Below, one piece after another: positions 3,402 to 39,933 of a DNA stretch of 64,000 nucleotides. Numbering within the stretch: position 1 is the stretch's first letter; every line of letters begins with the position of its first letter. The DNA lies in IMG/VR virus record IMGVR_UViG_2936984999_000007, one strand, 5' to 3'. The notes below the pieces were generated by a model. That model did no database searches, was not told where the DNA came from, and saw only the letters and a program-made list of their open reading frames with translations. This DNA is from a virus. A program made the translations under genes and the position numbers.

Positions 3402-3436
3402 AGTAGACTCCTTTCCTCCGGAGTAAATGTGACTCT

Positions 3437-7794: not shown

Positions 7795-8553
7795 ACAATG
7801 ATGATGAACATGATGACTGGAGCAGTTGCAATCAATGGTGGCGTTGGTGTGATGGAGGTCCGCCAGCCGCAGGTAATGGAGAAAGCGGTACAGGACGCAG
7901 GACATATCGCCGCCGATATCGCGGAGAACGCACACATTACCTTACATGAACTGAAGGAAAAGATCGATGCAGTGGTGGAGAAAAAGCTGCCGAGTTTCAA
8001 GGCCCTCATGGAAATGAATCCGATGGCTGTAGCCCGGACGACTGTGAATGATGCTTCTCTGACTGTTTACCAGAACGGCTATGCAGTTTACGAGATGGAC
8101 GGCGCACACACGGTCATGGCAGTGGAGCGCTGCGGGGATTACCGCTATGACTTCACGGACGATACATATCAGGTAGTGCCGGCTGAGACTTTTGAGGAGA
8201 CTGAGTGGAGCGTACGTCTGCTCATGGAAGGGGAACGCCGGATGGAGCACAATCGGAATAATCGTACTGCTGAGACTGAAAATGTGTCCCTGGAATGCGA
8301 TGGCTCCGACTGGTCCGCAGCAGTTATGGTGGATTTTTTGGATGAGGATAATGCCGAGATGTTGGCAGATCAGGAACTTCGCCGTCTGTATGCAGCCATG
8401 AGTAAGCTGACCGAGCGTCAGACGGAAATCCTTCAGCTTTATTTTTATAAAGGTATGAACCAATACGAGATTGCAGAGGAACTTGGCATCTGCCAGCAGT
8501 CGGTTAACCGGATCATGAATCAGGCAGTAAAAAGGCTGAGAAAAAATTTCTAA
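7795..8553 (+). CDS. sigma-70 region-4 domain protein (phage sigma-factor-like regulator)
   Basis: C-terminus LTERQTEILQLYFYKGMNQYEIAEELGICQQSVNRIMNQAVKRLRK matches a sigma-70 r4 HTH. RBS GGGGGAAAGGA before ATGATGATG at 7795. Confidence 0.55.
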   Translation, partial: TMMMNMMTGAVAINGGVGVMEVRQPQVMEKAVQDAGHIAADIAENAHITLHELKEKIDAVVEKKLPSFKALMEMNPMAVARTTVNDASLTVYQNGYAVYEMDGAHTVMAVERCGDYRYDFTDDTYQVVPAETFEETEWSVRLLMEGERRMEHNRNNRTAETENVSLECDGSDWSAAVMVDFLDEDNAEMLADQELRRLYAAMSKLTERQTEILQLYFYKGMNQYEIAEELGICQQSVNRIMNQAVKRLRKNF

Positions 8554-20040: not shown

Positions 20041-20610
20041 ATGGGACGAAAGAAAAGTAATGCCAGGCCGATAGAGCGCGGCCGCAAGATCCATGTCAAT
20101 AAATACATCAACCAGCGTGGAAAAACAAAGCCGCACCGCAGATCAGAGGCATCCTGTAAACTGACATCGAAAGAACCTCAGTTTTACGAGTTGCCAGCAG
20201 ATCAGTGGCCGGCAACAAAGATACCGAAGCAGTATGAAATCTGGTTTGCAGAATTGGGAAACCATTATGGCACTTCGGTCCAGAGCGGAAACCGTCCGGT
20301 GCTGGTCATCAGCAACGATATGGCAAACCGCAATTCCCCAATCATCACGGTGATCCCGATGAGTTCTAAGCTGAAGAAGCTGGAGCTGCCGGTACACATT
20401 CCGGTCACCGGGAAAGACTGTGAAATGCTCCGGGATGAGTGTCTGGAAGAATCCATTCTGCTGGTGGAGCAGATCACGACCATTGACAAGATGGTTCTGT
20501 GCAACCGGCTCTGCCGTGTGACCTCGGCCAGGAAAAAGCAGGAGATCGAAGCTGCTGTTAAAAAGCAGTTTGCGATGCAGGCTTGTACGGGAAGGGAGGC
20601 GCAGGCATGA
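20041..20610 (+). CDS. MazF/EndoA (PemK-family) endoribonuclease toxin homologue with a ~60 aa basic N-terminal extension
   Basis: Residues ~63-170 align motif-for-motif with B. subtilis EndoA: EIWFAELG ... GNRPVLVISND ... NRNSP ... KLELPVHIPV ... LLVEQITTIDK. RBS GGAGGTGAT. No mazE-like gene adjacent. Confidence 0.75.
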   Translation: MGRKKSNARPIERGRKIHVNKYINQRGKTKPHRRSEASCKLTSKEPQFYELPADQWPATKIPKQYEIWFAELGNHYGTSVQSGNRPVLVISNDMANRNSPIITVIPMSSKLKKLELPVHIPVTGKDCEMLRDECLEESILLVEQITTIDKMVLCNRLCRVTSARKKQEIEAAVKKQFAMQACTGREAQA

Positions 20611-23151: not shown

Positions 23152-23338
23152 AAAAAAAACAAATAAGAGAATCCGAGGTCTGCTTTTTATCTTGGCGGCC
23201 CAATTTTTGAGAAATCCATTTTGTGAGATATAAATTTTGAGTTTCACCTGAAACAGAGCAGGCAACCTTTGTGGGAGCCTATTTGTGGGCATGGGCAAAG
23301 GCGGCCTGCTTTGTGATACAAGAAAGAGAGGACAGAAC

Positions 23339-24406
23339 ATGAGTAAGATTATCACCTGTGAACAGGTCAGCAACGGCCATCCTGATAAGATCTGTGACCA
23401 GATCGCAGATGCCATTGTGACCGACATTCTTCAGCATGACAAGCACGCCCGCGTGGCGATTGAGTGTCTGCTGAAAAAGAGCCAGCTCTTTATTGCTGGC
23501 GAAGTCACTACCGATTACCGCCCAAACTACAACCAGATCGTACACGATGTGTTCAATCGTATCGGTGCCGAAAAGCTGGGCTGGAACCTGACCGAGCTTC
23601 TTCGCATCGGCATTCTGGTGGACAAGCAGTCCCCGGACATTGCACTGGGTGTGGATAAGGGCGGTGCCGGTGACCAGGGAATCATGTATGGCTATGCCAC
23701 CAACGAGACGGCAGAGCAGATGCCGATTCCCTACATGGTCGCCACCAAGTTCCTGCAGCTTCTCAAGGCACATCCGTCTAAGATGTTCCGTGCAGATGCC
23801 AAGGCGCAGGTCAGCTACGATTACGACACCGGACGCATCACCACATTCCTCTGCTCTGTGCAGCACAGCCCAGATGTGGAGGTCAGCGACTTCCGGCACA
23901 TCATCGAATCCATGATGGTGCTTGCCGCCTGCGAGTATGGTCTGGACGGTGACTTCACGAAGCTGGTCAATCCGACCGGCCGTTTCGTTCTGGGCGGCAG
24001 CTACGCCGACTGTGGTGTGACTGGTCGGAAGCTGGCGTGCGATACCTACGGCGGCATTGGTCGCATGGGTGGCGGTGCTCTGAGCGGTAAAGACCCCACC
24101 AAGGTGGATCGCTCCGCAGCATACATGGCGAGGAAGATTGCCAAGGACATCGTGCAGGCGGGCTACGCTGACAAGTGCGAAGTCCAGCTGGCCTACGCCA
24201 TCGGTGTGGTACAGCCGGTAGGTGTGGCTGTGGAGTGCTTCGGTACTGAGCACCAGTCCCTTGACTTCATCGAAGCCTATGTCCATGACAGCTATGACCT
24301 GACCCCACAGGGTATCATCAAGCGGCTGGGACTGCTGGATGTAGATTACAACAAAGTCAGTGCTTACGGTCATTTCGGTAAGGCTGGTCTTCCGTGGGAG
24401 GACTGA
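23339..24406 (+). CDS. metK: S-adenosylmethionine synthetase (MetK)
   Basis: GHPDKICDQIADAIVTDIL and GAGDQGIMYGYATNET. Full-length alignment to MetK; RBS AGAGAGGA. Confidence 0.85.
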   Translation: MSKIITCEQVSNGHPDKICDQIADAIVTDILQHDKHARVAIECLLKKSQLFIAGEVTTDYRPNYNQIVHDVFNRIGAEKLGWNLTELLRIGILVDKQSPDIALGVDKGGAGDQGIMYGYATNETAEQMPIPYMVATKFLQLLKAHPSKMFRADAKAQVSYDYDTGRITTFLCSVQHSPDVEVSDFRHIIESMMVLAACEYGLDGDFTKLVNPTGRFVLGGSYADCGVTGRKLACDTYGGIGRMGGGALSGKDPTKVDRSAAYMARKIAKDIVQAGYADKCEVQLAYAIGVVQPVGVAVECFGTEHQSLDFIEAYVHDSYDLTPQGIIKRLGLLDVDYNKVSAYGHFGKAGLPWED

Positions 24407-26204: not shown

Positions 26205-27473
26205 ATGAAAGCGACTGCTGAACTAAAGATGCTGCCGGTGTCCGTACTCAAGCCGGCTGCATACAATCCCCGGAAAAAGTTGAAGCCGGGGGATAAAGAG
26301 TACGAGAAAATCAAGAACTCCATCACGGAGTTCGGCTTCGCAGATCCTTTGGTGGTCAATGCAGACATGACGATCATCGGCGGCCATCAGAGACTGACTG
26401 TTGCAATGGAACTGGGATACACAGAAGTGCCTTGTGCGGTGGTGGACATCGACAAGACCAGAGAAAAAGCTCTGAACATCGCACTCAACAAGATTACGGG
26501 TGCATGGGATGATTCTCTGCTGGCGGATCTTTTGAAGGACATCGAGGATTCCGATTTCGATCTCGGAAAGACGGGTTTTGACCCGCCTGAGATTGAGACT
26601 CTGTTCAACAAGGTCCACAGCAAAGAGGTCAAGGAAGATGACTTCGATGTGGAATCCGAGTTGAAGCAGCCATGCTTCTCCAAAGAGGGTGACCTCTGGC
26701 ATCTGGGAAAGCATATCGTTCTGTGCGGTGATTCTACCAAAGCAGAATGCTACAACACCCTGATGGACGGAACCAAGGCAAATCTGGTCCTTTCCGATCC
26801 CCCTTATAACGTGGATGTGGAAGAGACTGCCGGTAAGATCATGAATGACAACATGGGCGATTCGGAATTCTACCAGTTCCTTCTGGCAGCGTTCCAGCAG
26901 ATGCACGACCATCTTGCAGACGACGGTTCCATCTACATCTTCCATGCAGATACGGAAGGGCTGAACTTTAGAAAGGCATTCAAGGATGCCGGGTTCTACC
27001 TGTCCGGGTGCTGTATCTGGAAGAAGAATGCGCTGGTGCTGGGCCGTAGTCCTTACCAGTGGCAGCACGAACCGTGTCTCTACGGCTGGAAGCAGAAGGG
27101 GAAGCACCAGTGGTATTCCGACCGGAAGCAGACGACCATATGGGAGTATGACCGGCCGAAGTCTAACAAGGATCATCCGACCATGAAGCCCATCGGCCTG
27201 ATGAGCTATCCAATCCGCAATTCCACTATGACCAACGGCATCGTCCTCGATCCGTTCCTCGGCAGCGGCTCGACCCTGATCGCCTGTGAGGAGACCGACC
27301 GTGTGTGCCGGGGCATCGAGCTGGACCCGAAGTTCGTGGATGTGATCGTGAAGCGGTACATCGAACACAGCGAAGGTCATTACGATGATGTGTATGTCAT
27401 CCGGGATGGGCAGAAGCTGAAGTTCGAGGAGGTGGCGACCTTCGAGCCGGAAAGCGAGGATGCCGATGCCTGA
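26205..27473 (+). CDS. ParB-like nuclease domain fused to an N6-adenine/N4-cytosine DNA methyltransferase (beta class)
   Basis: ParB N-domain (GGHQRLTVAMELG). Motif IV SDPPYN precedes motif I DPFLGSGST. Confidence 0.8.
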   Translation: MKATAELKMLPVSVLKPAAYNPRKKLKPGDKEYEKIKNSITEFGFADPLVVNADMTIIGGHQRLTVAMELGYTEVPCAVVDIDKTREKALNIALNKITGAWDDSLLADLLKDIEDSDFDLGKTGFDPPEIETLFNKVHSKEVKEDDFDVESELKQPCFSKEGDLWHLGKHIVLCGDSTKAECYNTLMDGTKANLVLSDPPYNVDVEETAGKIMNDNMGDSEFYQFLLAAFQQMHDHLADDGSIYIFHADTEGLNFRKAFKDAGFYLSGCCIWKKNALVLGRSPYQWQHEPCLYGWKQKGKHQWYSDRKQTTIWEYDRPKSNKDHPTMKPIGLMSYPIRNSTMTNGIVLDPFLGSGSTLIACEETDRVCRGIELDPKFVDVIVKRYIEHSEGHYDDVYVIRDGQKLKFEEVATFEPESEDADA

Positions 27474-28239
27474 TGTGAAATGTGTTCTCATTCACGACAA
27501 CTTCCAGAACTTCAAGTCTTATAACATCCCCAAGGCACAGCTGGTGATCGCAGATATTCCGTACAACATCGGTACAGATTTCTACGCCAGCCGGCCGGAC
27601 TGGTATGTGGATGGCGATAACAAAAACGGGGAGAGCAGCAAGGCGAGGAAGGCGGCGTTCAATACCGACTTCACCTTCAACATTGCAGAGTATTTCCACT
27701 TCTGCAACCGCCTGCTGAAGAAAGAACCCGGCACGGGCGAGAAGGATGCGCCGTGCATGATCGTGTTCTGTGCGTTCCAGCAGATCCCGAAGGTGATCAC
27801 CGAAGCAGAGAAATACGGCTTCAAGAATTATATCCCTCTGGTGTTCTGCAAGAACTACAGTCCGCAGGTGCTCAAAGCCAACATGAAGATTGTGGGTGCA
27901 ACAGAGTATGCGCTGGTGCTGTATCGGGGAAAGCTCCCGAAGTTCCGTAATCTCGGTGAGGACGGAAAGCCCCACATGATCTTCAACTGGTTTGACTGGA
28001 AGAGGGATGGCAAGGAATATCCGAAGATCCATCCTTCCCAGAAACCGATCTCTGTGCTGAAACGACTGATCGAGACCTTTACAGATGAGGGCGATGTGGT
28101 CATTGACCCCTGCGCCGGCAGCGGTTCCACGCTGAGAGCAGCAAGAGAACTGGGGCGCAACAGCTACGGATTTGAAGTGTCCAGAGATTTTTACCGGAAA
28201 GCAAATGAGCAGATGCTCGGAGAGGAGGCTTCCGCATGA
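27460..28239 (+). CDS. DNA methyltransferase (amino-MTase, beta class)
   Basis: ADIPYN ... DPCAGSGST. Confidence 0.75.
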   Translation: MPMPDVKCVLIHDNFQNFKSYNIPKAQLVIADIPYNIGTDFYASRPDWYVDGDNKNGESSKARKAAFNTDFTFNIAEYFHFCNRLLKKEPGTGEKDAPCMIVFCAFQQIPKVITEAEKYGFKNYIPLVFCKNYSPQVLKANMKIVGATEYALVLYRGKLPKFRNLGEDGKPHMIFNWFDWKRDGKEYPKIHPSQKPISVLKRLIETFTDEGDVVIDPCAGSGSTLRAARELGRNSYGFEVSRDFYRKANEQMLGEEASA

Positions 28240-30491
28240 GCACAGAACAGAATAAGACTTTGACCCTCGGCAGCCTCTTTGATGGCTCCGGGGGTTTTCC
28301 GTTAGGCGGTCTTCTGACTGGGCAGATCACTCCGCTGTGGAGCAGCGAGATCGAGCCCTTTGCCATCCGGGTCACGACCAAACGTCTACCACAGGTGAAG
28401 CACTACGGAGATGTATCCGTCATCAGCGGCGCAGACCTGCCGCCTGTGGACATCATCACCTTTGGCAGTCCCTGTCAGGATATGTCCATCGCGGGTAAGC
28501 GGGACGGTCTGGATGGTTCACGGTCCAGTCTGTTTTACGAAGCAATCCGAATCGTGAAGGAAATGAGGTGTAAGACCAATGGAGAAAAACCAAGATTTAT
28601 CGTGTGGGAGAATGTGCCAGGGGCCTTCTCCTCAAACAAAGGACAGGACTTCAAAGCAGTCCTCGAAGCCGTCATCGGTGTTAAAGAACCGGCCGCCTCG
28701 GTGCCTGCGCCTGAGAAGAAAGGATGGCCCGACGCTGACTACTACGTGGGAGACGGATGGAGCGTCGCATATCGAGTTCTTGATGCACAATGGTGGGGCG
28801 TTCCCCAAAGACGAAAACGTATCTACCTTGTCGCAGATTTTGCAGGTCAGAGTGCCCCAGAAATATTATTTAACTCCGAGGGCTTGTCTCGGTATTCTGC
28901 GGAGGGCTTCCGTGCGTGGCAAAGAGCTGCCGCCGGTGTTGAAAGCGGCACTGGAGAGGCAGGCTGCAACGGAGCAGGAGGACGGATCTGTCTGAACGAC
29001 CAGGGCGGAGAGCGGATGGATGTGACAGAGGAAGTGACAGCCACCCTCCGTGCGGAGGCACATCATCCCCCGTGTGTTATGGAAGCAGCTGGTTTCTGTA
29101 CCGAGCATTCCGCAAATGCCAGAAGCATCGGATATGAAGAGGAGCGGTCACCGACTCTCCGAGCTGGTGTCGTACCGGCCGCCATCGCACTGGAAAATCA
29201 TCCTGCTGACAGCCGGGTGAAGATTTCCGAGGATGATAAGGTGCAGACACTGACAAGCCGGTGTGGTACGGGTGGCGGTAATGTCCCGATGGTTATGGAT
29301 GCTGTTGAAAATTCAGTGGAAAGCCAGGTGAAAGATGTTGAAAACTCCCCGGCGGTCACGTTAAAGATCCGTTCCGGATGTGAAGGTGGCGGAAAGGGAG
29401 CCATCTGGCAGGAAGAAAAGTCTGCCACTCTTGGCTGCAACAACGACCAGACACTGTTCGTTCCGAAATGCTATGGTGTCTGCTCAAAAGCCAGCCACTC
29501 CATGATGTCCGACAATCCGCACAGCGGTTTTTATGAAGCGGAGACCTCCCGGACACTGGATCGCAGCGGTGGAGACCCGACTTGCAATCAGGGCGGCATC
29601 TGTGTGGTAGAGCCGGTCGCCTTTACTCAGAATCAGAGGGATGAAGTCCGGGATCTGGGAGATAAGTCGGCGGCACTGGCAGCAGAGCCGGGGATGAAGC
29701 AGCAGACATTCGTGGCACAGCCGGAAGATGTGACAGCTTTCCATGTGAACCAGCGCAATGAGCTGATTGACCTGCATGGCAAGTCCGGGGCTTTGATGGC
29801 GACCCGGAGTGATCAGATGCAGACCTTTGTCCTGCAGGGCAACATGATCGGTCGCAAAGATGAGAATGGCCCACAGGGGGATGGTGTCAATGAGGATGTC
29901 TGCTTTACACTGGATGCCACTGACCGCCATGCAGTCTGCGCACCGGAGGATGTGTATGCCATGACCACCGGCTCCTATATGCAGGTGGCAAAAGAAGTCG
30001 CACCGACTCTGATGGCACGGGATTACAAAGACCCGACCACCATCGCACCGGCACCACATCTGAACGAGGGTGTGGCTGGTACTGTGGCGACCGGGGCACA
30101 TCCCAGCGGCTTCAATGGGCAGGATGCTTTCAATGACCGTCTGGTCATCGACAACCCGGAGGCACAGTCCACCCCTGTGACCTACACCGTCCGCCGCCTT
30201 ACACCGACCGAGTGTGCCAGACTGCAGGGCTTCCCGGACTGGTGGTGCAGAGACCTTGGAACGGAGAATCCGACCGAGGAAGAGCTGGCGTTCTGGACAG
30301 ATGTGTTTGAAACGCACCGCAAGATCGTGACCCATGCCAAGAAGCCGAAGACGGAGAAGCAGATCCGGAAATGGCTGGCTGACCCGTATACGGATTCGGC
30401 AGAGTACCGTATCTGGGGTAACGGCATTTGTTTGGCCAACGCATTTTTTGTTCTGGCCGGCATCGCATGGTGTGCAGGTCTGGAAGAATAA
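28236..30491 (+). CDS. DNA cytosine-5 methyltransferase, unusually long (751 aa) with an expanded variable region
   Basis: Motif I FDGSGGF, IV GSPCQDMS, VI ENVPG, VIII QRRKRIY, IX/X RRLTPTECARLQGFPD. About 420 aa between VIII and IX, containing several TL/RDYKDP-type segments and internal repeats. Confidence 0.85.
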   Translation: MSTEQNKTLTLGSLFDGSGGFPLGGLLTGQITPLWSSEIEPFAIRVTTKRLPQVKHYGDVSVISGADLPPVDIITFGSPCQDMSIAGKRDGLDGSRSSLFYEAIRIVKEMRCKTNGEKPRFIVWENVPGAFSSNKGQDFKAVLEAVIGVKEPAASVPAPEKKGWPDADYYVGDGWSVAYRVLDAQWWGVPQRRKRIYLVADFAGQSAPEILFNSEGLSRYSAEGFRAWQRAAAGVESGTGEAGCNGAGGRICLNDQGGERMDVTEEVTATLRAEAHHPPCVMEAAGFCTEHSANARSIGYEEERSPTLRAGVVPAAIALENHPADSRVKISEDDKVQTLTSRCGTGGGNVPMVMDAVENSVESQVKDVENSPAVTLKIRSGCEGGGKGAIWQEEKSATLGCNNDQTLFVPKCYGVCSKASHSMMSDNPHSGFYEAETSRTLDRSGGDPTCNQGGICVVEPVAFTQNQRDEVRDLGDKSAALAAEPGMKQQTFVAQPEDVTAFHVNQRNELIDLHGKSGALMATRSDQMQTFVLQGNMIGRKDENGPQGDGVNEDVCFTLDATDRHAVCAPEDVYAMTTGSYMQVAKEVAPTLMARDYKDPTTIAPAPHLNEGVAGTVATGAHPSGFNGQDAFNDRLVIDNPEAQSTPVTYTVRRLTPTECARLQGFPDWWCRDLGTENPTEEELAFWTDVFETHRKIVTHAKKPKTEKQIRKWLADPYTDSAEYRIWGNGICLANAFFVLAGIAWCAGLEE

Positions 30492-30715: not shown

Positions 30716-31843
30716 ATGTTGAAGTTTGAACTAAATGTAGAGGAGCGCAAAACACTGGCAAAGCGGATGGAGGAGCTGACAGGCATCCATCCTTACTACA
30801 CCAAGGCGCCTCGGTATGCGTATGACATCGGAAATTACACCATTGACCGGGATGGCAACCTGCTGGTGGAGGCGGAAAATGCAGATCTGGAATTGCTGAC
30901 TACGCTGATGAACGAAGGTCTGATCCGCGGCGGCGAGGATGTGGATGCAGAGACTTTGCAGGAAACTGCAGACGAACAGCCTGCGGTAGACCTTGCCGAG
31001 GGTGTCCAGATGATTCCGGCAGTACATCCAAATGAGCAGGAGACCTGTGAAGGGGATTCAGAAGAAGCCGAGGAAGATGGGGAATCCGAAATGGAGAGTG
31101 CAGAGCAAATTCCATCGGAAGAAGGTGAGGAACAGCCTGTGGCAGAGGAAGCAATCCCTCTGGATGCGGATTTTTCTTTCCCGATCAGCCAGCATAACGG
31201 CGTATCGCTTCGCAACCTGGTCAATCTGATCTACAGCAGAGGGGAACTCGTCAGCAAGGCAACGGACGGCATTTTCCTTGCCGATAAGGGGCTGGTGGAT
31301 GCCTTGAAAGATGACAGCTGCACTTATGCGGTAGCAAATTTCATTCATGCGCTCAAAGAGTATGAAGAACAGCATGGTGCTTCCCTGGAAGGCTTGACGA
31401 TCACAGATGAGAAAGTTACCTTTACAGGTTTCCCGACTGCACCGGATTATGACCACCTGACTGCATTCGGACACCTTGCGATTCTGATGAACCAGCAGGC
31501 TATCAGCCAGAAGCGGATTCAGGCAAAAGAGGTGAACGATTCCAATGAGAAATACGCTTTGCGAACTTGGCTTCTGCGCCTTGGCATGAATGGCCCGGAC
31601 TTCAAGCAGACCAGAAAGATCTTGATGGAGAACCTTTCCGGCCATGCGGCTTTCCGCACAGATGAGGAAGCACAGAAGTTCCTTGCAAGGGAAAAGGCAA
31701 AACGGGATGCCCTGAAAGCCGCGAAACAGGCGGCACAGGAGGGCAGTGCCTCCGCTGGGGAAACGATTGCATCAGCAGATGCCGAGCCGACACAGCTCGG
31801 CTGTGGGGCAGACACGGCGCAGATGCTGGAGGCGGGAGCGTAA
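30716..31843 (+). CDS. acidic protein whose C-terminal ~45 aa module is homologous to the amidoligase C-terminus
   Basis: NEKYALRTWLLRLGMNGPDFKQTRKILMENLSGHAAFR here, versus NEKYAMRCWMLRLGFIGDEFATAREILLRNMEGNASWR in the 32076-33014 gene. Confidence 0.45.
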   Translation: MLKFELNVEERKTLAKRMEELTGIHPYYTKAPRYAYDIGNYTIDRDGNLLVEAENADLELLTTLMNEGLIRGGEDVDAETLQETADEQPAVDLAEGVQMIPAVHPNEQETCEGDSEEAEEDGESEMESAEQIPSEEGEEQPVAEEAIPLDADFSFPISQHNGVSLRNLVNLIYSRGELVSKATDGIFLADKGLVDALKDDSCTYAVANFIHALKEYEEQHGASLEGLTITDEKVTFTGFPTAPDYDHLTAFGHLAILMNQQAISQKRIQAKEVNDSNEKYALRTWLLRLGMNGPDFKQTRKILMENLSGHAAFRTDEEAQKFLAREKAKRDALKAAKQAAQEGSASAGETIASADAEPTQLGCGADTAQMLEAGA

Positions 31844-31999
31844 GCTCTCAAGCCCCCAGTGGGGGCCGGAAAATATGCGAGACCCTCTTCCATTGTACTG
31901 ATATTAGCTCTGAAAATGTACATTATCAAGCGGATAAACTGCAGAAATGTACACGATCATTCCTCTCAATATTTGTCGAATATATGTTCTTTTATGGCC

Positions 32000-32028
32000 T
32001 TGCTATTATGTGCACCTGACGGTAATAT
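32000..32028 (+). promoter_or_regulatory. cassette promoter copy 1 (TTGCTA-17-TAATAT plus conserved leader GCACATACCGAAAGGGAAAAC)
   Basis: Member of the 7-copy family; drives the amidoligase. Confidence 0.55.
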
Positions 32029-32075
32029 GCACATACCGAAAGGGAAAACAAGGAAAAAGCAAAGGAGAACATACC

Positions 32076-33014
32076 ATGAACGATAAAACAAGAGAGCAGA
32101 TTGAAGCCATGAAGAACCAGACCATCGGAGTTGAGATCGAGATGAACAACATCACCAGAGAAAAAGCGGCAAGAAAGGTCGCTGATTACTTCGGAACCAG
32201 AGCATGGAACGCCGCCAGCGAGTACGGATATTACAGCTGGGCTTGCAAAGACCAGCAGGGCAGGGTTTGGAAATTTCAGAGGGATGTGAGCATCTACGGG
32301 CCAGACGCAGAAAAATGCGAACTGGTCACCCCGATCCTCACCTACGACGACATCGAACCCCTGCAGGAAATCATCCGACTGCTCCGCAAGGCAGGCGCAA
32401 AGAGCGGCCCAAGCCGCGGATGCGGGGTCCACATCCACATTGGCAAAGGCGACCACACCGCAAAGACCATCCGCAACCTTGTGAACATCATGGCGGCACA
32501 CGAACAGCAGATCGGAAGAGCCATCCGGATTGATGCAGGACGCACCGGACAATATTGCCGGGTAGTCGACCACCGCTTCCTCGACCGGCTGAACCGCGAG
32601 AAGCCGACCACCATGCGCAAGCTGGAAGACATCTGGTACGAAGGCAACGGTTCCAGCTGGGAAAACCGGAATGTCCACTACAATTCAAGCCGATACCATA
32701 TGCTGAACCTCCATGCCACCTTTACAAAAGGGACCATTGAATTCCGCCTTTTCCAATTCGCAGACCCAGCGGACGGAAAGCGCAACGGACTGCATGCCGG
32801 TGAGATGAAAGCTTACATCCAGCTTTGCCTCGCAATGAGCCAGCTTGCCAAGATGGTCAGAACAGCAAGCCCGAAGCCCCAGCAGACCGACAACGAAAAG
32901 TACGCGATGCGGTGCTGGATGCTGAGGCTGGGATTCATCGGGGATGAATTTGCAACGGCAAGGGAGATTCTTCTGCGGAACATGGAGGGCAACGCATCCT
33001 GGCGGAACAAATAA
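32076..33014 (+). CDS. amidoligase (glutamine-synthetase-like, Amidoligase_2 family)
   Basis: IGVEIEMN start, YGPDAEKCELVTP, GCGVHIHIG. RBS AAAGGAGAAC. Confidence 0.6.
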   Translation: MNDKTREQIEAMKNQTIGVEIEMNNITREKAARKVADYFGTRAWNAASEYGYYSWACKDQQGRVWKFQRDVSIYGPDAEKCELVTPILTYDDIEPLQEIIRLLRKAGAKSGPSRGCGVHIHIGKGDHTAKTIRNLVNIMAAHEQQIGRAIRIDAGRTGQYCRVVDHRFLDRLNREKPTTMRKLEDIWYEGNGSSWENRNVHYNSSRYHMLNLHATFTKGTIEFRLFQFADPADGKRNGLHAGEMKAYIQLCLAMSQLAKMVRTASPKPQQTDNEKYAMRCWMLRLGFIGDEFATAREILLRNMEGNASWRNK

Positions 33015-35541: not shown

Positions 35542-35705
35542 ACGGAAAATGGGGGCCTCAAAAGAATGAGAACCCCTTTCCAGTTTACTGTATATTACCT
35601 CTGGAAAGCAACAATAGCAAGGAGAACCGCCGCCATAATGTACACAAACATCTGGCAGCGGTTTTGTGTATCATACCAAACCAAAACGGGGGATACGAGG
35701 CAGAG

Positions 35706-35757
35706 CCCCAGCTTCTGCTGGGGAGCCTCTGAGGGATTCCTTAGAAGAAATCCCTCA
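35706..35757. terminator. two adjacent hairpins (CCCCAGC-ttct-GCTGGGG and GAGGGATT-N9-AATCCCTC) between convergent genes
   Basis: Bidirectional terminator position. Confidence 0.45.
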
Positions 35758-35974
35758 TGCTCATGCCGACCTCGTTCAGTCGTTCCTCCATGCTGTGGTA
35801 GTGCCAATCCTCTTCCTCAAGCTCCTCTGGAAAAGGGTCGTGCTGCCATCCGGCTTTCTGGTATTCTTCTTCCCGGATGTCGTTGCGGTCGTAAATGTCC
35901 AGCTCGTATTCTTCTTCAAGCTCTGCGATGCGGTTTTCGATTGCGTTTTCAACTTCTGTAATGGTCTTTTTCAT
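35741..35974 (-). CDS. small acidic protein (77 aa); the only minus-strand gene in the 4-64 kb block
   Basis: Minus-strand RBS AAACGGAGGACAAAACCC before the ATG at 35974. Rich in E/D/W/Y. Confidence 0.4.
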   Translation of the reverse strand: MKKTITEVENAIENRIAELEEEYELDIYDRNDIREEEYQKAGWQHDPFPEELEEEDWHYHSMEERLNEVGMSMRDFF

Positions 35975-36123
35975 GGGTTTTGTCCTCCGTTTTTGGTTTG
36001 GTTTTCTTTGCTTTCGTTGTGTGTATAATGCCGCAGAAACACATATATAGCAAGTCAATCAGGGGTCATATATGTACCAAACATGAAGGGGGAAGATCGT
36101 TGATAATATGACGTTTTATGGCC

Positions 36124-36152
36124 TTGCTATCACAGGGCGGTGACGGTAATAT
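36124..36152 (+). promoter_or_regulatory. cassette promoter copy 2 (TTGCTA-17-TAATAT, ACAGCTAC leader)
   Basis: Conserved family member. Confidence 0.55.
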
Positions 36153-36183
36153 ACAGCTACAAAAAGCAAAGGAGGACAGCAGA

Positions 36184-36360
36184 ATGGCTGATTGGAGAAC
36201 ATGGAAAAAAGGGAGAAAGACAACATGGCACTGGAACGAATTCGATGGAAGCGGAAGCCGGGAAGGGATCATCACCGAGGTTCATGAAGACCACGCGATC
36301 ATGGAAGCAGACGGCATGCACCTTTGGATCGACGATGACACAGCAGAGATGTTCAGCTAA
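36184..36360 (+). CDS. small hypothetical protein (58 aa), cassette gene A
   Basis: RBS AAAGGAGGACAGCAGA. Terminator hairpin CGGGGAGG-gaaa-CCTCCCCG at 36363-36390. Confidence 0.4.
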   Translation: MADWRTWKKGRKTTWHWNEFDGSGSREGIITEVHEDHAIMEADGMHLWIDDDTAEMFS

Positions 36361-36441
36361 GAAAAACGGGGAGGGAAACCTCCCCGGATAAACACATAAA
36401 TCCACCAGATCAAGGTGCAGATGATCGTGTACTTTAGCCGC

Positions 36442-36470
36442 TTGATAGTATCCGGCAGTGACGGTAATAT
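36442..36470 (+). promoter_or_regulatory. cassette promoter copy 3 (TTGATA-17-TAATAT)
   Basis: Conserved upstream box GATCGTGTACTTTAGCCGC. Confidence 0.55.
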
Positions 36471-36500
36471 ACAGCTACCAAAACGAAAGGGGCAAAGAAC

Positions 36501-36707
36501 ATGGAACGCTACACTTACGAGATCACTTTTACACGGCTGGATGGACAGCCAGATGAAATCCAGCAGCACACCAGCGAGGAGCTGGCAAGAGAATGCTTCC
36601 GGCTTTTCGATGAGCCAGACAGTGCAGAGATGTACAGCAAAATCGAACTTAGCCGCCACGACTGGGAGACAGCCACGGATGAGATTCTGGAAACGATGAC
36701 ATTCTGA
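36501..36707 (+). CDS. small acidic hypothetical protein (68 aa), cassette gene B
   Basis: RBS GAAAGGGGCAAAG. Confidence 0.4.
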   Translation: MERYTYEITFTRLDGQPDEIQQHTSEELARECFRLFDEPDSAEMYSKIELSRHDWETATDEILETMTF

Positions 36708-36722
36708 GAGGAGGAAAATACA

Positions 36723-36983
36723 ATGACCTACACAAAAATCAACCTTTACCTTGCGAACGGAATCCCAGAGGCGCTCAGCAACCTTTGGTACGGAAGCGAC
36801 AGCTCGGTGGTCGAGATCAGGGATGCCGTTGAGGATGCGAAGAACGGCAAAGACCTTCTGAACCGCATCCAGAAGATGAAGCTCCTGCGGAAATTCACCC
36901 TCGACAGGGAGACCGACAAGCGAATCCGCTTCAAGGGCACGGACTGCTGGGACAACGTAAGCTACCTCGAAATCATCCGCTAA
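36723..36983 (+). CDS. small hypothetical protein (86 aa), co-transcribed with gene B
   Basis: RBS GAGGAGGAAAATACA. Terminator 37003-37030. Confidence 0.35.
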   Translation: MTYTKINLYLANGIPEALSNLWYGSDSSVVEIRDAVEDAKNGKDLLNRIQKMKLLRKFTLDRETDKRIRFKGTDCWDNVSYLEIIR

Positions 36984-37112
36984 AGGCAAGACCGACAGGC
37001 GCAAGGGGCTGGAAATGACCAGCCTTTTGCTCGTGTCTGTCTTCCGAAAGCCGACATAAAAAGCACATAAATATGACAATTACAGGATTGAATGATTGTG
37101 TAGTTTAGCCGC

Positions 37113-37141
37113 TTGATAGTGCTCCGGGGTGACGGTAATAT
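37113..37141 (+). promoter_or_regulatory. cassette promoter copy 4 (TTGATA-17-TAATAT)
   Basis: Conserved family member. Confidence 0.55.
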
Positions 37142-37185
37142 ACAGTCACCGAAAGGGGAAAACAACAAAAACGGAGGATAAGACA

Positions 37186-37629
37186 ATGACGAAGAACGAA
37201 GACCGCATCAATAAACTTTTCAAGGAACTGGTACCGGAGACGGGCAAGGCGGACAGCCTCGCAGGGGAGCTGGTAAGGGCAATGAGCCGCATCGGATACC
37301 GCTTTTACAACGACGGTGACCAGCTGGGCATCGGCTACGGCAAGGAAACCTGCAACCCTGCAGGGCGGTTCCTTGGAGCCAAGGGAAACGACAAAATCGC
37401 AAAGCTGACTGCAGATGCCTGGGCAGTTTACAGCGAGGAAGCCTACGAAAAGGTTCTGGACATCCTTTGCGGAGCGGTTGCCGACTATGTCGAGCAGAAC
37501 CCAGACCTTAAAAACCAGCCGACCGAAGATATGTGGGACTTCAAGGATGAGGAAGAAGACCAGGATGACAGCTGGGATGAGGAAGAAGATGACTGGGACG
37601 AAGAGGACTACGACGAGGAAGACTACTAA
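37186..37629 (+). CDS. hypothetical protein with an extremely acidic C-terminal tail (DNA-mimic candidate), cassette gene D
   Basis: C-terminus DEEEDQDDSWDEEEDDWDEEDYDEEDY. RBS AACGGAGGATAAGACA. The ORF-track start at 37129 lies inside the promoter. Confidence 0.45.
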   Translation: MTKNEDRINKLFKELVPETGKADSLAGELVRAMSRIGYRFYNDGDQLGIGYGKETCNPAGRFLGAKGNDKIAKLTADAWAVYSEEAYEKVLDILCGAVADYVEQNPDLKNQPTEDMWDFKDEEEDQDDSWDEEEDDWDEEDYDEEDY

Positions 37630-37726
37630 GCCAGAGAAACACAGGGGGCTTGCCGGAAACGGCGGCCCTTTTCCTCTGTCATAATCCTTACAGATCCGGG
37701 CGGTCATCTTTGTGTAGTATAGCCGC

Positions 37727-37755
37727 TTGATAGTGTGTGACATAGACGGTAATAT
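37727..37755 (+). promoter_or_regulatory. cassette promoter copy 5 (TTGATA-17-TAATAT, GCACATACCGAAAGGGAAAAC leader)
   Basis: Conserved family member. Confidence 0.55.
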
Positions 37756-37799
37756 GCACATACCGAAAGGGAAAACAAAGAAAAACGGAGGAAACCACC

Positions 37800-37991
37800 A
37801 TGAAGAAGAACATCACCAAGGAAGAAGAAAAAGCCCTGCTGGAGATCACTAAGCGCCTGCTGGCAGCGGTAGACAGCCGGGGCGACCTCGAAGCCCGCGA
37901 TAATGACAGCGAGGACTTCATTGAGGTTCCGGTCTGGGGCATCCAGAAAGCAATGGAGGAAGCCTACTTGCTGGGACGGATGACCAGATAA
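37800..37991 (+). CDS. small acidic hypothetical protein (63 aa), cassette gene E
   Basis: RBS AACGGAGGAAACCACC. Confidence 0.4.
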   Translation: MKKNITKEEEKALLEITKRLLAAVDSRGDLEARDNDSEDFIEVPVWGIQKAMEEAYLLGRMTR

Positions 37992-38122
37992 ACCGACAGC
38001 CCCCGACACAGCCCTCACACAGAGGCTTGTGCCACGGGTGGCAAAATGATCCGGATGAACCGACAGCGCCCCACACAGGGGCAGATGTGGCGGTGTGGAT
38101 GCGCCAGAAAGAGGAGAAGCAT

Positions 38123-38329
38123 ATGGAAGAACGGATGATGGATACCATCGTGGAAATCTACAACCACATGGATGACAGCGATAAGGATGCCTTCACACTG
38201 GAGGATGCCGAGGATATGGTGGAAGACCAGATCAGGATGGACAAGGAAGCCGGACGGGAGCCGCTGGCATATGACCCGCAGTTCTTCTACGATACCATTG
38301 TGGAACTCATGGAGCAGGATGTAGAATGA
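38123..38329 (+). CDS. small acidic hypothetical protein (68 aa)
   Basis: RBS AGAGGAGAAGCAT. No promoter copy of its own. Confidence 0.3.
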   Translation: MEERMMDTIVEIYNHMDDSDKDAFTLEDAEDMVEDQIRMDKEAGREPLAYDPQFFYDTIVELMEQDVE

Positions 38330-38378
38330 TGTACGTTTTGCCTGGTATTCCGGGCAGAAGATCGTGTACTTTAGCCGC

Positions 38379-38407
38379 TTGCTATCCTTTGCACCTGACG
38401 GTAATAT
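38379..38407 (+). promoter_or_regulatory. cassette promoter copy 6 (TTGCTA-17-TAATAT)
   Basis: Conserved family member. Confidence 0.55.
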
Positions 38408-38463
38408 GCACATACCGAAAGGGAAAGACCCCAAGAAAAAAACGAAAACACGGAGGATTTACC

Positions 38464-38748
38464 ATGAAAAAGCATTTGATCGACTTCCCGGAAAACAACA
38501 TCAGCATCGAGAGTTTCTACGAACGACTCAGACCTTGCTACGACAGCATCATGCAGTTCGGTGACCGGGTTCTGGTTGCCCAGATGAACTGGAACGGCAT
38601 GCTGGAAGGAGCGGTATATGGCTTTGTGGAAGACCCAGAGGAAGGCTGGTCACCGATTGAGTGCCGACTGGAACTTCTGAAGATTTCCGATGAGACCTAC
38701 ACGGATGCCGGTCACGCAATCGAGTGGTGCATCAAGAACGCACACTGA
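38464..38748 (+). CDS. hypothetical protein (94 aa), cassette gene G
   Basis: RBS ACGGAGGATTTACC. Confidence 0.4.
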   Translation: MKKHLIDFPENNISIESFYERLRPCYDSIMQFGDRVLVAQMNWNGMLEGAVYGFVEDPEEGWSPIECRLELLKISDETYTDAGHAIEWCIKNAH

Positions 38749-38860
38749 AAAAGGGCAGAGCTCCTTCGGGGGCTTTTGCTCGTAGTGGCGGATTCTTCCA
38801 GTGTGGAAATATACATAAATCCGACAAAAAGAGGTGTGTATGATCGTGCAGCATAGCCGC

Positions 38861-38889
38861 TTGCTATATCCGGGCGGTGACGGTAATAT
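38861..38889 (+). promoter_or_regulatory. cassette promoter copy 7 (TTGCTA-17-TAATAT)
   Basis: Conserved family member. Confidence 0.55.
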
Positions 38890-38947
38890 ACAGTCACAAC
38901 GAAGGGGAAAGCCCTACGGAAAACAAAACACACGGAGGATACAGACC

Positions 38948-39325
38948 ATGACGAACAAAGCAAAAACCTACCTTAAGAACATTCAGGGAGCCGATACCGA
39001 GAAGAAGCTGATCGGCATCGAGATCGCCTTCAAGCAGGACATGACCCTCAGCTGCAGCGACCTCGGAAGCCTTTGCAGGGCGGCAGAGGACAGGCGGTAC
39101 AGCCTGCGGAACAACGAGGAAACGCTGAAGCTGAAGCAGATCCTTTTCTTCCGGACGAAAGCGGAAATGGATGCCTACCATGACATGAGCCACAAGCCGG
39201 AAGATTGGACGGAAGCGGAGATCAAGCAGCAGAGAAGCCGCTTCTGCAGCGTCTGGCAGGTCATCGAGGAAGCGGAGCTGGTCGATGAATACGAGGCTTG
39301 GAAGGAAGCCAACCCCAACGCATAA
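38948..39325 (+). CDS. hypothetical protein (125 aa), cassette gene H
   Basis: RBS ACGGAGGATACAGACC. Confidence 0.4.
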   Translation: MTNKAKTYLKNIQGADTEKKLIGIEIAFKQDMTLSCSDLGSLCRAAEDRRYSLRNNEETLKLKQILFFRTKAEMDAYHDMSHKPEDWTEAEIKQQRSRFCSVWQVIEEAELVDEYEAWKEANPNA

Positions 39326-39395
39326 CAGCACCCAAAAGGTACACGCCCCGAAAAGGGGCTGTGCCTCGTATCCGATGTGTTTTATATAGATTTCA

Positions 39396-39423
39396 AGGAC
39401 TTCTTCGGAGGTCCTTTTTCTTT
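39396..39423 (+). terminator. strong intrinsic terminator (AGGACTTC-ttcg-GAGGTCC + TTTTTCTTT)
   Basis: Separates the cassette array from the packaging genes. Confidence 0.6.
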
Positions 39424-39453
39424 ACCCAAATTTCAGGAGAGGAGGGGAAGCCA

Positions 39454-39933
39454 ATGGCTACCAGAGGCAGAAAACCAAAGCCGACCGCCATGAAGGAACT
39501 GGAAGGCAATCCAGGCAAGCATCCGCTGAATACCAGCGAACCGAAGCCCAACAAGAAAGCACCGGCCTGTCCGAAGTGGCTGGAGCCGGAAGCAAAGAAA
39601 GAGTGGCGCAGACTTGCCAAACAGATGGAAGCCATCGGCATCCTGACCGAAGTGGACATGGCGGCCTTCGCCGGTTACTGTCAGGCGTATGCCCGATGGA
39701 AAGAGGCAGAGGAGTTCATCACCCAGCACGGCACCATTGTCAAGACCCCGTCCGGCTACTGGCAGCAAGTGCCGCAGGTGTCCATTGCTCAGACCTATCT
39801 GAAAATCATGAATAAGTTTGCCGAGCAGTTCGGCCTGACCCCATCCTCCCGAAGCCGGATCATTGCTTCGGACGGTGGTCCTGCGGATGCAGCCGATGAG
39901 ATGGAGAATCTGCTGGGAGGAGGTGGAAGCTGA
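39454..39933 (+). CDS. terminase small subunit, P27 family
   Basis: MATRGRKPKPTAMKELEGNPGKHPLN ... PACPKWL ... AKKEWRRL matches the P27-family TerS N-terminus. RBS GGAGAGGAGGGG. Confidence 0.75.
   Translation: MATRGRKPKPTAMKELEGNPGKHPLNTSEPKPNKKAPACPKWLEPEAKKEWRRLAKQMEAIGILTEVDMAAFAGYCQAYARWKEAEEFITQHGTIVKTPSGYWQQVPQVSIAQTYLKIMNKFAEQFGLTPSSRSRIIASDGGPADAADEMENLLGGGGS

What the first reader, a model, noticed from the sequence alone, without database searches (positions are those of the whole stretch)
36096..39330. Array of small-gene cassettes, each rebuilt on the same promoter-leader module (7 copies)
Seven near-identical units were found: six between 36.1 and 38.9 kb, and one at 31.99 kb upstream of the amidoligase. 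Each unit reads: a ~20 bp upstream box (GATCGTGTACTTTAGCCGC, or the TTTTATGGCC variant), then TTG(A/C)TA, an exact 17 bp spacer ending in (T)GACGG, then TAATAT, then a conserved leader, then an A-rich stretch, then GGAGG-ATG. The leader is one of two subtypes: ACAG(C/T)(T/C)AC ... CGAAAGGGG or GCACATACCGAAAGGGAAAAC.

Each cassette drives one or two small ORFs of 58-147 aa and ends in its own hairpin terminator. The products are mostly very acidic; one ends in DEEEDQDDSWDEEEDDWDEEDYDEEDY. This is the composition expected of DNA mimics or other anti-defense proteins.

Conservation continues past the -10 into the transcribed leader. That implies a shared regulator, RNA element or translational control on top of simple promoter reuse. 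The structure looks like an integron-style set of independently transcribed accessory genes. It sits between the early/methylase region and the terminase.
Basis: seen in the sequence. Interest (0 to 1): 0.85.

Follow-up and report, generated by a model that had tools for sequence, protein, structure and literature searches.

The report
Repeated promoter-leader cassettes in gut prophage
A prophage of a gut Clostridia bacterium puts the same conserved promoter and leader in front of each of its small accessory genes, and related phages gain and lose these genes as whole units; this resembles the promoter-terminator cassettes already known in T4-type phages.

Summary
The repeat is real. Exactly seven + strand copies of TTG(A/C)TA-N12-GACGG-TAATAT occur (chance about 0), one before the amidoligase operon and six at 36.1-38.9 kb. 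"Near-identical" is wrong: the 71-nt modules are 48-76% identical around an invariant core.

Each module looks like a sigma-A-type promoter with G at -14. It is followed by an unstructured purine-rich leader that starts with a Shine-Dalgarno-like tract. Each unit carries one or two small genes under purifying selection (dN/dS 0.08-0.19) and ends in a hairpin.

Hundreds of uncultivated gut Clostridia phage and prophage contigs use the same module before at least 58 gene families. Cassettes are gained and lost as units, sometimes with junctions inside the modules.

The closest analogues are the PeSL cassettes of T4-type phages, morons and the SPO1 host-takeover module. It is not an integron. No RNA structure is shared, and the most acidic protein has no known DNA-mimic fold. 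Anti-defence function, timing and the recognising factor remain untested; host sigma-A is favoured over the phage's sigma-like protein.

A second promoter class sits back-to-back with the first and drives short hairpin RNAs.

Verdict: new variant of a known kind, moderate interest.

The parts
31980..32075 (+). Module 1 (class A): -35 TTGCTA 32000-32005, TGACGG, -10 TAATAT 32023-32028, leader; drives the amidoligase operon (32076-33014 onward)
36103..36183 (+). Module 2 (class A): -35 36124-36129, -10 36147-36152; short leader whose 5'-proximal SD is the real RBS
36184..36360 (+). Cassette 2 ORF, 58 aa, pI 4.75 (family G5)
   Evidence: dN/dS 0.08
36367..36386 (+). Hairpin after cassette 2 (-22.4 kcal/mol, z -4.8); no U-tract on the + strand
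36421..36500 (+). Module 3 (class A): -35 36442-36447, -10 36465-36470; short leader
36501..36707 (+). Cassette 3 ORF a, 68 aa, pI 4.23 (family G6); precisely absent in L101
36723..36983 (+). Cassette 3 ORF b, 86 aa, pI 8.8 (family G8); has its own module in other genomes
36985..37045 (+). Long hairpin after cassette 3 (z -5.3) containing a UUUU run
37092..37185 (+). Module 4 (class A): -35 37113-37118, -10 37136-37141; long leader with an orphan SD-like tract and a second SD
37186..37629 (+). Cassette 4 ORF, 147 aa, pI 4.05, net charge -26 (family G1); four-helix bundle with disordered acidic tail
37643..37671 (+). Hairpin with UUUUCCUCU after cassette 4 (terminator-like)
37706..37799 (+). 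Module 5 (class A, AGACGG): -35 37727-37732, -10 37750-37755
37800..37991 (+). Cassette 5 ORF a, 63 aa, DUF6900 (family G4)
38123..38329 (+). Cassette 5 ORF b, 68 aa, pI 4.05; its homologue (G27) has its own module in L158
38336..38359 (+). Hairpin after cassette 5 (z -3.9); no trailing U-tract
38358..38463 (+). Module 6 (class A): -35 38379-38384, -10 38402-38407
38464..38748 (+). Cassette 6 ORF, 94 aa, Nmad4 domain (family G2)
38753..38781 (+). Hairpin after cassette 6, followed by UUUUGCUCG
38840..38947 (+). Module 7 (class A): -35 38861-38866, -10 38884-38889
38948..39325 (+). Cassette 7 ORF, 125 aa (family G3)
39337..39416 (+). Two hairpins closing the array (39337-39366 and 39395-39416; the second has a U-tract), directly before terS (ATG 39454)
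35741..36053 (-). Diverged module on the minus strand (TTGCTA-17-CATTAT, 36053-36025) driving a 77-aa acidic ORF (35974-35741)
35544..35620 (-). Class B promoter (TTGCTA-N11-CAGAGG-TAATAT, 35620-35592) followed only by a hairpin and T-run (35581-35544); no ORF
31845..31929 (-). Class B promoter (TTGATA-N11-CAGAGC-TAATAT, 31929-31901), back-to-back with module 1; the short transcript runs into the hairpins at the 3' end of gene 30716-31843

Best explanation
The seven units are copies of a regulatory cassette used across a whole clade of temperate phages of gut Clostridia.

Anatomy of one copy, in order:
1. An upstream hairpin that ends the previous unit.
2. A sigma-A-type promoter: TTG(A/C)TA, a 17-bp spacer ending in TGACGG with G at -14, then TAATAT.
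3. A 6-nt discriminator and a predicted start at an invariant A.
4. An unstructured, purine-rich leader whose first 4-12 nt form a Shine-Dalgarno-like tract.
5. Usually an A-rich linker and a second, true Shine-Dalgarno sequence before ATG.

Inferred mechanism:
- Host RNA polymerase with sigma-A starts at each module, so each accessory gene or gene pair is its own transcription unit, insulated by hairpins.
- The 5'-proximal Shine-Dalgarno-like tract recruits 30S subunits. It acts either as the real ribosome-binding site (short leaders) or as a standby site or 5' stabiliser of the STAB-SD type (long leaders).
- Because the same roughly 70-nt module recurs between genes, it also serves as a patch of homology, so recombination adds, removes or swaps whole cassettes. 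This parallels the PeSL cassettes of T4-type phages.

Shown here: the repeat, its selective conservation, the reality of the genes, the variation in cassette content, and junctions inside modules. Inferred: promoter activity, sigma-A dependence, the role of the leader, and the recombination mechanism.
For: - Repeat and core: seven copies with an invariant core and exact 17-bp spacing.
- Spread: the core recurs in at least 119 viral and about 76 flank-supported genome loci, in arrays of up to seven, before 58 first-gene families.
- Age and selection: orthologous modules are more alike than paralogous ones in the box, spacer and leader, yet -35, TGACGG and -10 are equally conserved in both comparisons. 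The copies are old and the core is held by selection.
- Extended -10: G at -14 is present in every common variant among 828 matches to a relaxed pattern that left those positions free.
- Distinct class: the lysogeny-switch promoters of the same prophage are plain consensus sites, so the modules are a separate promoter class.
- Host factor: a Streptococcus suis phage with 77% identical terL carries one such promoter before a homologue of cassette family G12. It has no detectable homologue of the window's sigma-like protein.
- Leader: leaders are unstructured. In 86% of 189 long leaders the first 16 nt pair strongly with the anti-SD, against 18% of shuffled leaders, and only 2 of 189 have a start codon in range. 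The STAB-SD mechanism is documented (PMC4113751).
- Genes: dN/dS is 0.08-0.19.
- Cassette turnover: cassette indels with hybrid-module junctions occur in L197, L117, L014 and L131, and L168 has an insertion flanked by modules. Alignment-block ends are 84% intergenic against 36% expected (p = 2e-14), and 34% fall in module zones against 20% expected (p = 0.006).
Against: - No transcript data: start sites, strength and timing are all inferred.
- The invariant non-consensus bases (TAATAT instead of TATAAT, plus GACGG) go beyond what sigma-A alone needs and could mark a dedicated factor.
- The prophage encodes a protein with a sigma-70 region 4 domain.
- Enrichment of breakpoints within the promoter itself is modest. 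Most of the signal is simply intergenic, which selection against broken genes would also produce.
- The collection searches required an exact core, which inflates its apparent conservation.
- The orphan SD-like tract could be a passive remnant carried along with the module.
Confidence: 0.6

Rival explanations
1. The modules form a regulon read by a phage-encoded factor. The 252-aa protein with a sigma-70 region 4 domain (7795-8553), or another phage activator, would recognise the extended -35 (AGCCGC-TTGMTA) or the TGACGG-TAATAT element and switch all cassettes on together. The precedents are PBSX Xpf and the RinA/ArpU-type late activators (from general knowledge).
For: - The protein passes the sigma-70 superfamily cut-off through region 4 only, and it weakly matches the 'positive control sigma-like factor' model.
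- Non-consensus bases are invariant across diverged copies.
- The modules differ from the consensus-type switch promoters of the same phage.
- Six of 21 contigs encoding close homologues of the protein also appear in the module list.
Against: - TTGMTA-17-TAATAT with G at -14 is already a workable sigma-A promoter.
- The same core occurs before a homologous gene in a Streptococcus suis phage, and no Streptococcus phage in the collection has a detectable homologue of the protein.
- The core also occurs in elements with quite different upstream boxes and gene content.
- The co-occurrence test was limited to close relatives and is not decisive.
Confidence: 0.2
2. The tandem promoters mainly feed the packaging and late operon. 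The six co-directional promoters, followed by leaky hairpins, would supply read-through transcription into terS/terL. The conserved promoter-proximal sequence would then serve an antitermination factor, as in lambda PR'-qut-tR' (from general knowledge).
For: - No promoter-like site was found between the last terminator (39395-39416) and the terS start at 39454.
- About half of the hairpins lack a U-tract.
- All modules point towards terS.
- Conservation spans the promoter and the initially transcribed region.
Against: - The same module drives the amidoligase operon 4 kb upstream, and serine recombinases and other genes elsewhere that are not next to late genes.
- The last hairpin is a strong canonical terminator.
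- Leaders carry no RNA structure.
- No Q-like gene was identified.
Confidence: 0.1
3. The conserved module is a site-specific recombination site of an integron-like cassette system, recognised by a dedicated recombinase.
For: - Cassette-wise gain and loss, with some junctions inside the modules.
- In 17 other loci a large serine recombinase gene sits behind the same promoter core.
Against: - Each cassette has its own promoter, unlike integron cassettes.
- No complementarity or covariation brackets the core: own-partner stems average 3.33 nt against 3.39 for permuted partners.
- Junctions are spread over whole intergenic zones and not at one point.
- Orthologous modules keep positional identity, as expected for occasional homologous exchange.
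- No recombinase gene lies in or next to the array.
Confidence: 0.04

Closest known systems
PeSL (promoter-early stem-loop) cassettes of T4-type phages (Arbiol et al. 2010, PMC2839356; Comeau et al. 2014, PMC4122927)
   Same: Both are composite stem-loop and sigma-70-type promoter motifs repeated between small non-essential ORFs in a variable region. Each ORF becomes an insulated transcription unit. Insertions, deletions and replacements between related genomes have junctions at or within the motifs.
   Different: The host phage here is a temperate phage of Gram-positive Clostridia, not a lytic T4-like myovirus. The sequences are unrelated. The hairpin lies 25-100 nt upstream of the -35 instead of overlapping the promoter. 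There is an added conserved leader with a 5'-proximal SD-like tract. A second promoter class is paired back-to-back with the first. Promoter and terminator activity and mini-circles are not shown here.
Morons of temperate phages (promoter + gene + terminator units; discussed in PMC2839356; original concept from general knowledge, Juhala et al. 2000)
   Same: They are autonomous promoter-gene-terminator units carrying accessory genes, inserted between core modules of a prophage.
   Different: Morons are not defined by a shared flanking regulatory sequence and usually occur singly. Here one conserved module is reused seven or more times per genome and across hundreds of genomes.
SPO1 host-takeover module (PMC6873191; Stewart et al. 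1998, cited there)
   Same: It is a cluster of mostly small genes in short operons in a Firmicutes phage, with promoters and ribosome-binding sites typical of highly expressed genes.
   Different: SPO1 is a lytic phage and its module lies in the terminal redundancy. The genes share no detected homology. Early expression and host shut-off are shown experimentally for SPO1 and not here.
STAB-SD / 5' polypurine mRNA stabilisers of Bacillus (PMC4113751; Agaisse and Lereclus 1996, cited there)
   Same: A Shine-Dalgarno-like sequence close to the mRNA 5' end, complementary to the 16S 3' end and not followed by a start codon, lies upstream of the true ribosome-binding site.
   Different: The resemblance is by sequence and position only. 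No decay or 30S-binding data exist for these leaders. In short-leader copies the same tract is simply the real ribosome-binding site.
Integron cassette arrays
   Same: Arrays of small, variable, single-gene cassettes.
   Different: There is no IntI integrase, attI or attC. Every cassette has its own promoter instead of sharing one Pc promoter.

Membership tests
PeSL-type regulatory cassette | Strong sigma-70-like promoter consensus repeated in intergenic spaces | tested here: met
   TTGMTA-17-TAATAT with G at -14 occurs in all seven copies, and the pattern gave 828 relaxed matches in related loci against 1.5 expected. Activity was not measured.
PeSL-type regulatory cassette | Adjacent stem-loop able to act as a terminator or attenuator | tested here: met
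   A stable hairpin lies in every gap between cassettes (z down to -5.3), and about half have a U-tract. The hairpin is upstream of the promoter, not overlapping it.
PeSL-type regulatory cassette | Lies in a variable region of small non-essential ORFs | tested here: met
   There are eight ORFs of 58-147 aa, and cassette content varies between related arrays.
PeSL-type regulatory cassette | Indels and replacements between related genomes have junctions at the motifs | tested here: met
   Hybrid-module junctions occur in L197, L117, L014 and L131, and L168 has an insertion flanked by modules. Of alignment-block ends, 34% fall in module zones against 20% expected (p = 0.006), and 84% are intergenic against 36% expected.
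PeSL-type regulatory cassette | Circular cassette intermediates (mini-circles) | not testable with these tools
   This needs inverse PCR or long reads from induced cultures.
PeSL-type regulatory cassette | Occurs in T4-like myoviruses, with homology to the T4 early promoter motif | tested here: not met
   This is a temperate prophage with an M78/HTH repressor module, and its terL is 77% identical to those of Streptococcus prophages. The motif sequence is unrelated. It is therefore an analogue, not a member.
Integron | IntI tyrosine integrase, attI and a single Pc promoter | tested here: not met
   No integrase was found in or next to the array. Each cassette has its own promoter.
Integron | attC sites: imperfect inverted repeats that fold as hairpins and flank promoterless cassettes | tested here: not met
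   The core shows no excess complementarity or covariation. The hairpins between cassettes have unrelated sequences.
STAB-SD-type 5' mRNA stabiliser | SD-like sequence near the 5' end, complementary to the 16S 3' end and not used for initiation | tested here: met
   In 86% of 189 long leaders the duplex energy with the anti-SD is -6 kcal/mol or lower within the first 16 nt, against 18% of shuffled leaders. Only 2 of 189 have a start codon 4-13 nt downstream. The 5' end is predicted, not mapped.
STAB-SD-type 5' mRNA stabiliser | Stabilises the mRNA against 5'-3' decay through 30S binding | not testable with these tools
   This needs half-life measurements with and without the tract, and with and without RNase J.
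Structured cis-regulatory leader RNA (riboswitch, put- or nut-like) | Conserved secondary structure in the leader | tested here: not met
   Leader MFE is -0.7 to -8 kcal/mol with z-scores near 0. There are no Rfam matches.
DNA-mimic anti-restriction proteins (Ocr/ArdA-like) | Fold similar to a known DNA mimic | tested here: not met
Phage sigma-factor-dependent promoter class | Promoter and cognate phage sigma-like factor co-occur | tested here: inconclusive
   Six of 21 contigs with close homologues also carry modules. A Streptococcus suis phage has the promoter type without a detectable homologue.

The most novel reading that the evidence does not exclude
The modules may belong to a two-class promoter grammar shared by a very large group of gut Firmicutes phages. 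Class A (nGACGG-TAATAT) drives forward accessory cassettes. Class B (nAGAG[CGT]-[GT]AATAT) sits back-to-back with class A and often makes only short, conserved hairpin RNAs that run antisense into the 3' end of the upstream operon. On this reading, the class-specific extended -10 elements would be read by dedicated factors. Together with the repeated modules, this would form a purpose-built system for exchanging and insulating accessory gene cassettes: a recombinase-free counterpart of an integron for phage accessory (possibly anti-defence) genes.
Probability: 0.15. Interest if true: 0.7.

Novelty: new variant of a known kind. Interest (0 to 1): 0.45.

Why it matters
The module is a short, searchable signature that marks accessory-gene cassettes in hundreds of uncultivated gut Clostridia phages and prophages. 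At least 58 gene families, almost all of unknown function, sit behind it. Searching by promoter could therefore list candidate host-takeover, anti-defence or lysogenic-conversion genes in a phage group that is hard to study.

It would also extend promoter-mediated modular shuffling, so far described only for T4-type phages, to temperate phages of Gram-positive gut bacteria.

Finally, it offers compact, probably strong, promoter-leader parts for genetic tools in Lachnospiraceae and Oscillospiraceae.

Tried and rejected
- **Hairpin bracketing the -10.** Copies 1, 4 and 7 look complementary across the -10. Across 170 unique modules, own-partner stems average 3.33 nt against 3.39 +/- 0.05 for permuted partners, and mutual information shows only neighbour linkage. 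Rejected.
- **Known RNA families.** Rfam gave nothing at gathering threshold over the whole window, and nothing relevant at E <= 1 over the array and the class B regions.
- **Structured leader RNA.** The leaders are unstructured. Rejected.
- **Recent duplication or gene conversion as the cause of similarity.** Orthologous modules are more alike than paralogous ones in the variable parts, while the core is equally conserved in both. Rejected.
- **DNA similarity to deposited phages.** No match for the array.
- **DNA-mimic fold for the 147-aa protein.** Only generic helical-bundle matches.
- **Genome-specific uniform extended -10, as a sign of a genome-specific factor.** Classes A and B coexist in 74 loci and in the window itself. 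Weakened.
- **Spo0A-box, sporulation-sigma and ECF-type readings of TGACGG-TAATAT.** I considered these from memory. They do not fit the variants seen in diverged copies, so I did not pursue them.
- **Contig-level co-occurrence with the sigma-like protein.** Only close relatives could be retrieved. Inconclusive.
- **Literature search for the motif string.** Only unrelated primer hits.
- **A caution on my own filter.** The HMM support filter for collection hits is dominated by the core, so it is not independent evidence for single-copy loci. About 140 chance matches to the exact pattern are expected in the 596-Gb genome collection.

Full report
**1. The observation**

A search for GACGGTAATAT finds seven exact copies, all on the + strand, at 32018, 36142, 36460, 37131, 37745, 38397 and 38879. 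With one mismatch allowed there is one more, on the minus strand. Shuffled sequence gives a mean of 0.41 matches.

The full pattern, -35 hexamer, 12 free bases, then GACGGTAATAT, matches the same seven places and never matches in shuffles. After I corrected an offset error made, the per-segment identities are as follows:

| Segment | Mean pairwise identity |
|---|---|
| -35 hexamer | 0.90 |
| GACGG | 1.00 |
| TAATAT | 1.00 |
| variable 12 nt of the spacer | 0.37 |
| 20-nt upstream box | 0.59 |
| 22 nt after the -10 | 0.61 |
| whole 71-nt module | 0.65 (range 0.48-0.76) |

The units are therefore not near-identical. They are diverged copies with an invariant core and exact 17-bp spacing.

Seven of the eight products are acidic and one is basic. 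Every gap between cassettes holds a stable hairpin, but only about half are followed by a U-tract.

**2. Genomic context**

The window is a prophage. From left to right it contains:
- an M78 peptidase and an HTH repressor on the minus strand (2742-4000);
- consensus-type switch promoters;
- a type I-like methylase;
- an RstR-like HTH protein (7008-7355);
- a 252-aa protein with only a sigma-70 region 4 domain (7795-8553);
- replication genes;
- a SAM synthetase;
- three further methylases;
- the amidoligase operon, behind module 1;
- the cassette array;
- terS and terL.

The terL protein is 77% identical to those of Streptococcus prophages. No deposited phage shares the array DNA.

Among the cassette proteins, Pfam recognises only DUF6900 (37800-37991) and Nmad4 (38464-38748).

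**3. Comparative evidence**

- *Spread.* The exact core occurs in at least 119 stretches of uncultivated viral contigs, in arrays of up to seven. It also occurs in genomes of Blautia, Lawsonibacter, Wujia, Acetatifactor, Acutalibacteraceae and others. About 140 chance matches are expected in the 596-Gb genome collection. In line with that, 44 of 120 genome loci have no flank support.
- *Genes behind the module.* Among 454 profile-supported modules, the first downstream ORF falls into 58 families. These include the seven from the window, large serine recombinases, and the DUF3846, DUF7678 and DUF7698 families.
- *Array order.* Arrays are largely syntenic, but whole cassettes come and go. Genes that share a promoter in the window (36723-36983 and 38123-38329) have their own module elsewhere.
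- *Reality of the genes.* The small ORFs have median dN/dS of 0.08-0.19.
- *Age of the copies.* Orthologous modules are more alike than paralogous ones in the box (0.74 vs 0.53), the spacer (0.54 vs 0.37) and the leader (0.74 vs 0.55). The -35, TGACGG and -10 are equally conserved in both comparisons. The copies are therefore old and positionally stable, and selection holds the core.
- *Unbiased sample.* For 80 amidoligase loci retrieved by protein similarity alone, the leader (T)ACCGAAAGGGAAAAC is kept in nearly all lineages. The bases before the -10 differ by lineage: TGACGG, TAGAGC, CAGAGG and others.

**4. What the parts most likely do**

*Promoter.* TTGMTA-17-TAATAT is a workable sigma-A promoter. 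G at -14, half of an extended -10, is present in all common variants among 828 relaxed matches, where 1.5 were expected by chance. That pattern left those positions free.

The switch promoters of the same prophage (TTGACA-17-TATACT and TTGACT-17-TATTAT) lack the GACGG/TAATAT signature, so the modules are a distinct class.

*Which factor reads it.* A phage-encoded factor is possible, given the sigma region 4 protein. Against this, Streptococcus suis phage phiSC070807 has one class A-type promoter (E = 2e-6) before a 30%-identical homologue of cassette family G12. No Streptococcus phage in the collection has a detectable homologue of the region 4 protein. I therefore favour host sigma-A, without transcript data.

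*Leader.* The leaders are unstructured and nothing matches Rfam. What is conserved is a polypurine Shine-Dalgarno-like tract at about +4 to +12 of the predicted RNA.
- In short leaders (copies 2 and 3) it is the real ribosome-binding site.
- In 189 long leaders it is an orphan followed by a second SD. 86% pair strongly with the anti-SD, against 18% of shuffled leaders, and only 2 of 189 have a start codon in range.

This matches the STAB-SD arrangement, in which 30S binding near the 5' end blocks RNase J1 (PMC4113751). The match is by sequence and position only.

**5. Recombination**

- In L197 (92-95% identical), cassette 5 is missing, and the two flanking alignments overlap by 110 nt on a single hybrid module.
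- L117, L014 and L131 show the same pattern.
- L168 has an extra cassette flanked by modules on both sides.
- In L101 one ORF is missing precisely, from its start codon to the next ribosome-binding site.

Over 58 distinct block structures, 84% of the 61 internal alignment-block ends are intergenic, against 36% expected (p = 2e-14). 34% lie in module zones, against 20% expected (p = 0.006). The largest hotspot, at 36700-36750, is where other genomes carry a module that the window lacks.

Exchange therefore happens cassette by cassette, and it sometimes runs through the modules. The specific enrichment in the promoter is modest, and selection against broken genes would explain part of the intergenic bias.

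**6. Comparison with what is known**

PeSLs of T4-type phages are defined as strong sigma-70-like early promoters plus stem-loop terminators. They lie between small ORFs in hyperplastic regions and mediate modular shuffling (PMC2839356 and PMC4122927). Four of their features are met here. Mini-circles could not be tested, and membership by descent fails, because this is a different phage group with an unrelated sequence. It works like a PeSL but is not one.

Morons and the SPO1 host-takeover module (PMC6873191) are further analogues.

The integron features are not met. There is no integrase, attI or attC; each cassette has its own promoter; and the core shows no structural covariation.

The DNA-mimic idea has no fold support for the 147-aa protein. 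Anti-defence function is untested.

I found no description of this motif in the searchable literature.

**7. Verdict**

The feature is real, is maintained by selection and is widespread. It is a new variant of a known kind, and its interest is moderate. Its most useful aspect is as a searchable marker of accessory cassettes in gut Clostridia phages. Its least expected aspect is the paired second promoter class, listed under the side observations.

Noticed in passing
window 31929-31845 (- strand) and 35620-35544 (- strand); related loci L001-L441: A second promoter class, B (TTGMTA-N11-nAGAG[CGT]-[GT]AATAT), has 301 copies in the loci collected. Where classes A and B share a locus they lie on opposite strands 230:39. 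Ninety class B copies have no ORF and drive two conserved short hairpin transcripts. These copies sit back-to-back with a class A module 65:1, typically 117 nt or about 550 nt apart, and point into the 3' end of the upstream operon. In other lineages class B drives the amidoligase gene itself. No Rfam family matches.
   Followed up: partly
window 36053-35741 (- strand): A diverged module (TTGCTA-17-CATTAT, with the same leader style ...ACAACGAAAG...AAAAACGGAGGA) lies on the opposite strand. It drives a 77-aa very acidic ORF (pI 4.26) and looks like an inverted cassette at the head of the array.
   Followed up: partly
window 1843-2281 (+ strand): TTGCTA-N15-GGTAATAT lies near the left end of the prophage, ahead of an ORF of roughly 111 aa, which is followed by a hairpin at about 2320-2350. 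This may be a further moron-like unit. My first ORF coordinates were out of frame and I did not re-derive them.
   Followed up: no
window 39326-39460: No recognisable promoter lies between the strong terminator (39395-39416) and the terS start codon (39454), so how the packaging and late operon is transcribed is unclear. In L197 about 1.5 kb is inserted between the last cassette and this terminator.
   Followed up: no
window 7795-8553 (+ strand): A 252-aa protein has only a sigma-70 region 4 HTH at its C-terminus. It passes the TIGR02937 cut-off and weakly matches the 'positive control sigma-like factor' model. It sits just after an RstR-like HTH gene near the lysogeny switch. Its target is unknown.
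   Followed up: partly
window 4880-6343, 23285-24406, 26205-30491: The prophage carries an unusually heavy load of DNA-modification genes: an N6 methylase with a type I S-like neighbour, two N4/N6 methylases (one fused to a ParB N-terminal domain), a 751-aa C5 methylase and its own SAM synthetase. It also carries a MazF/PemK-like toxin at 20041-20610.
   Followed up: no
window 37984-38011 and 38051-38078: A 28-nt direct repeat (86% identical; CCRGATRAACCGACAGC...CACAG) lies in the gap between the two ORFs of cassette 5. In L158 the equivalent gap holds a full promoter module.
   Followed up: no
L458 (KT336321.1, Streptococcus phage phiSC070807) 11349-11753: A class A-type promoter (TTGATA-N11-CTACGG-TAATAT-GTGACTAC) precedes hypothetical gene phiSC070807_39, which lies between the Doc toxin and portal genes. 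That gene is a homologue (about 30% identity) of cassette family G12 of the Clostridia phage arrays.
   Followed up: partly
window 35700-35690 and 39362-39372: The short motif GCCTCGTATCC follows the terminal hairpin both after the minus-strand 77-aa ORF and after cassette 7. This suggests that the terminator flanks are repeated as well.
   Followed up: no
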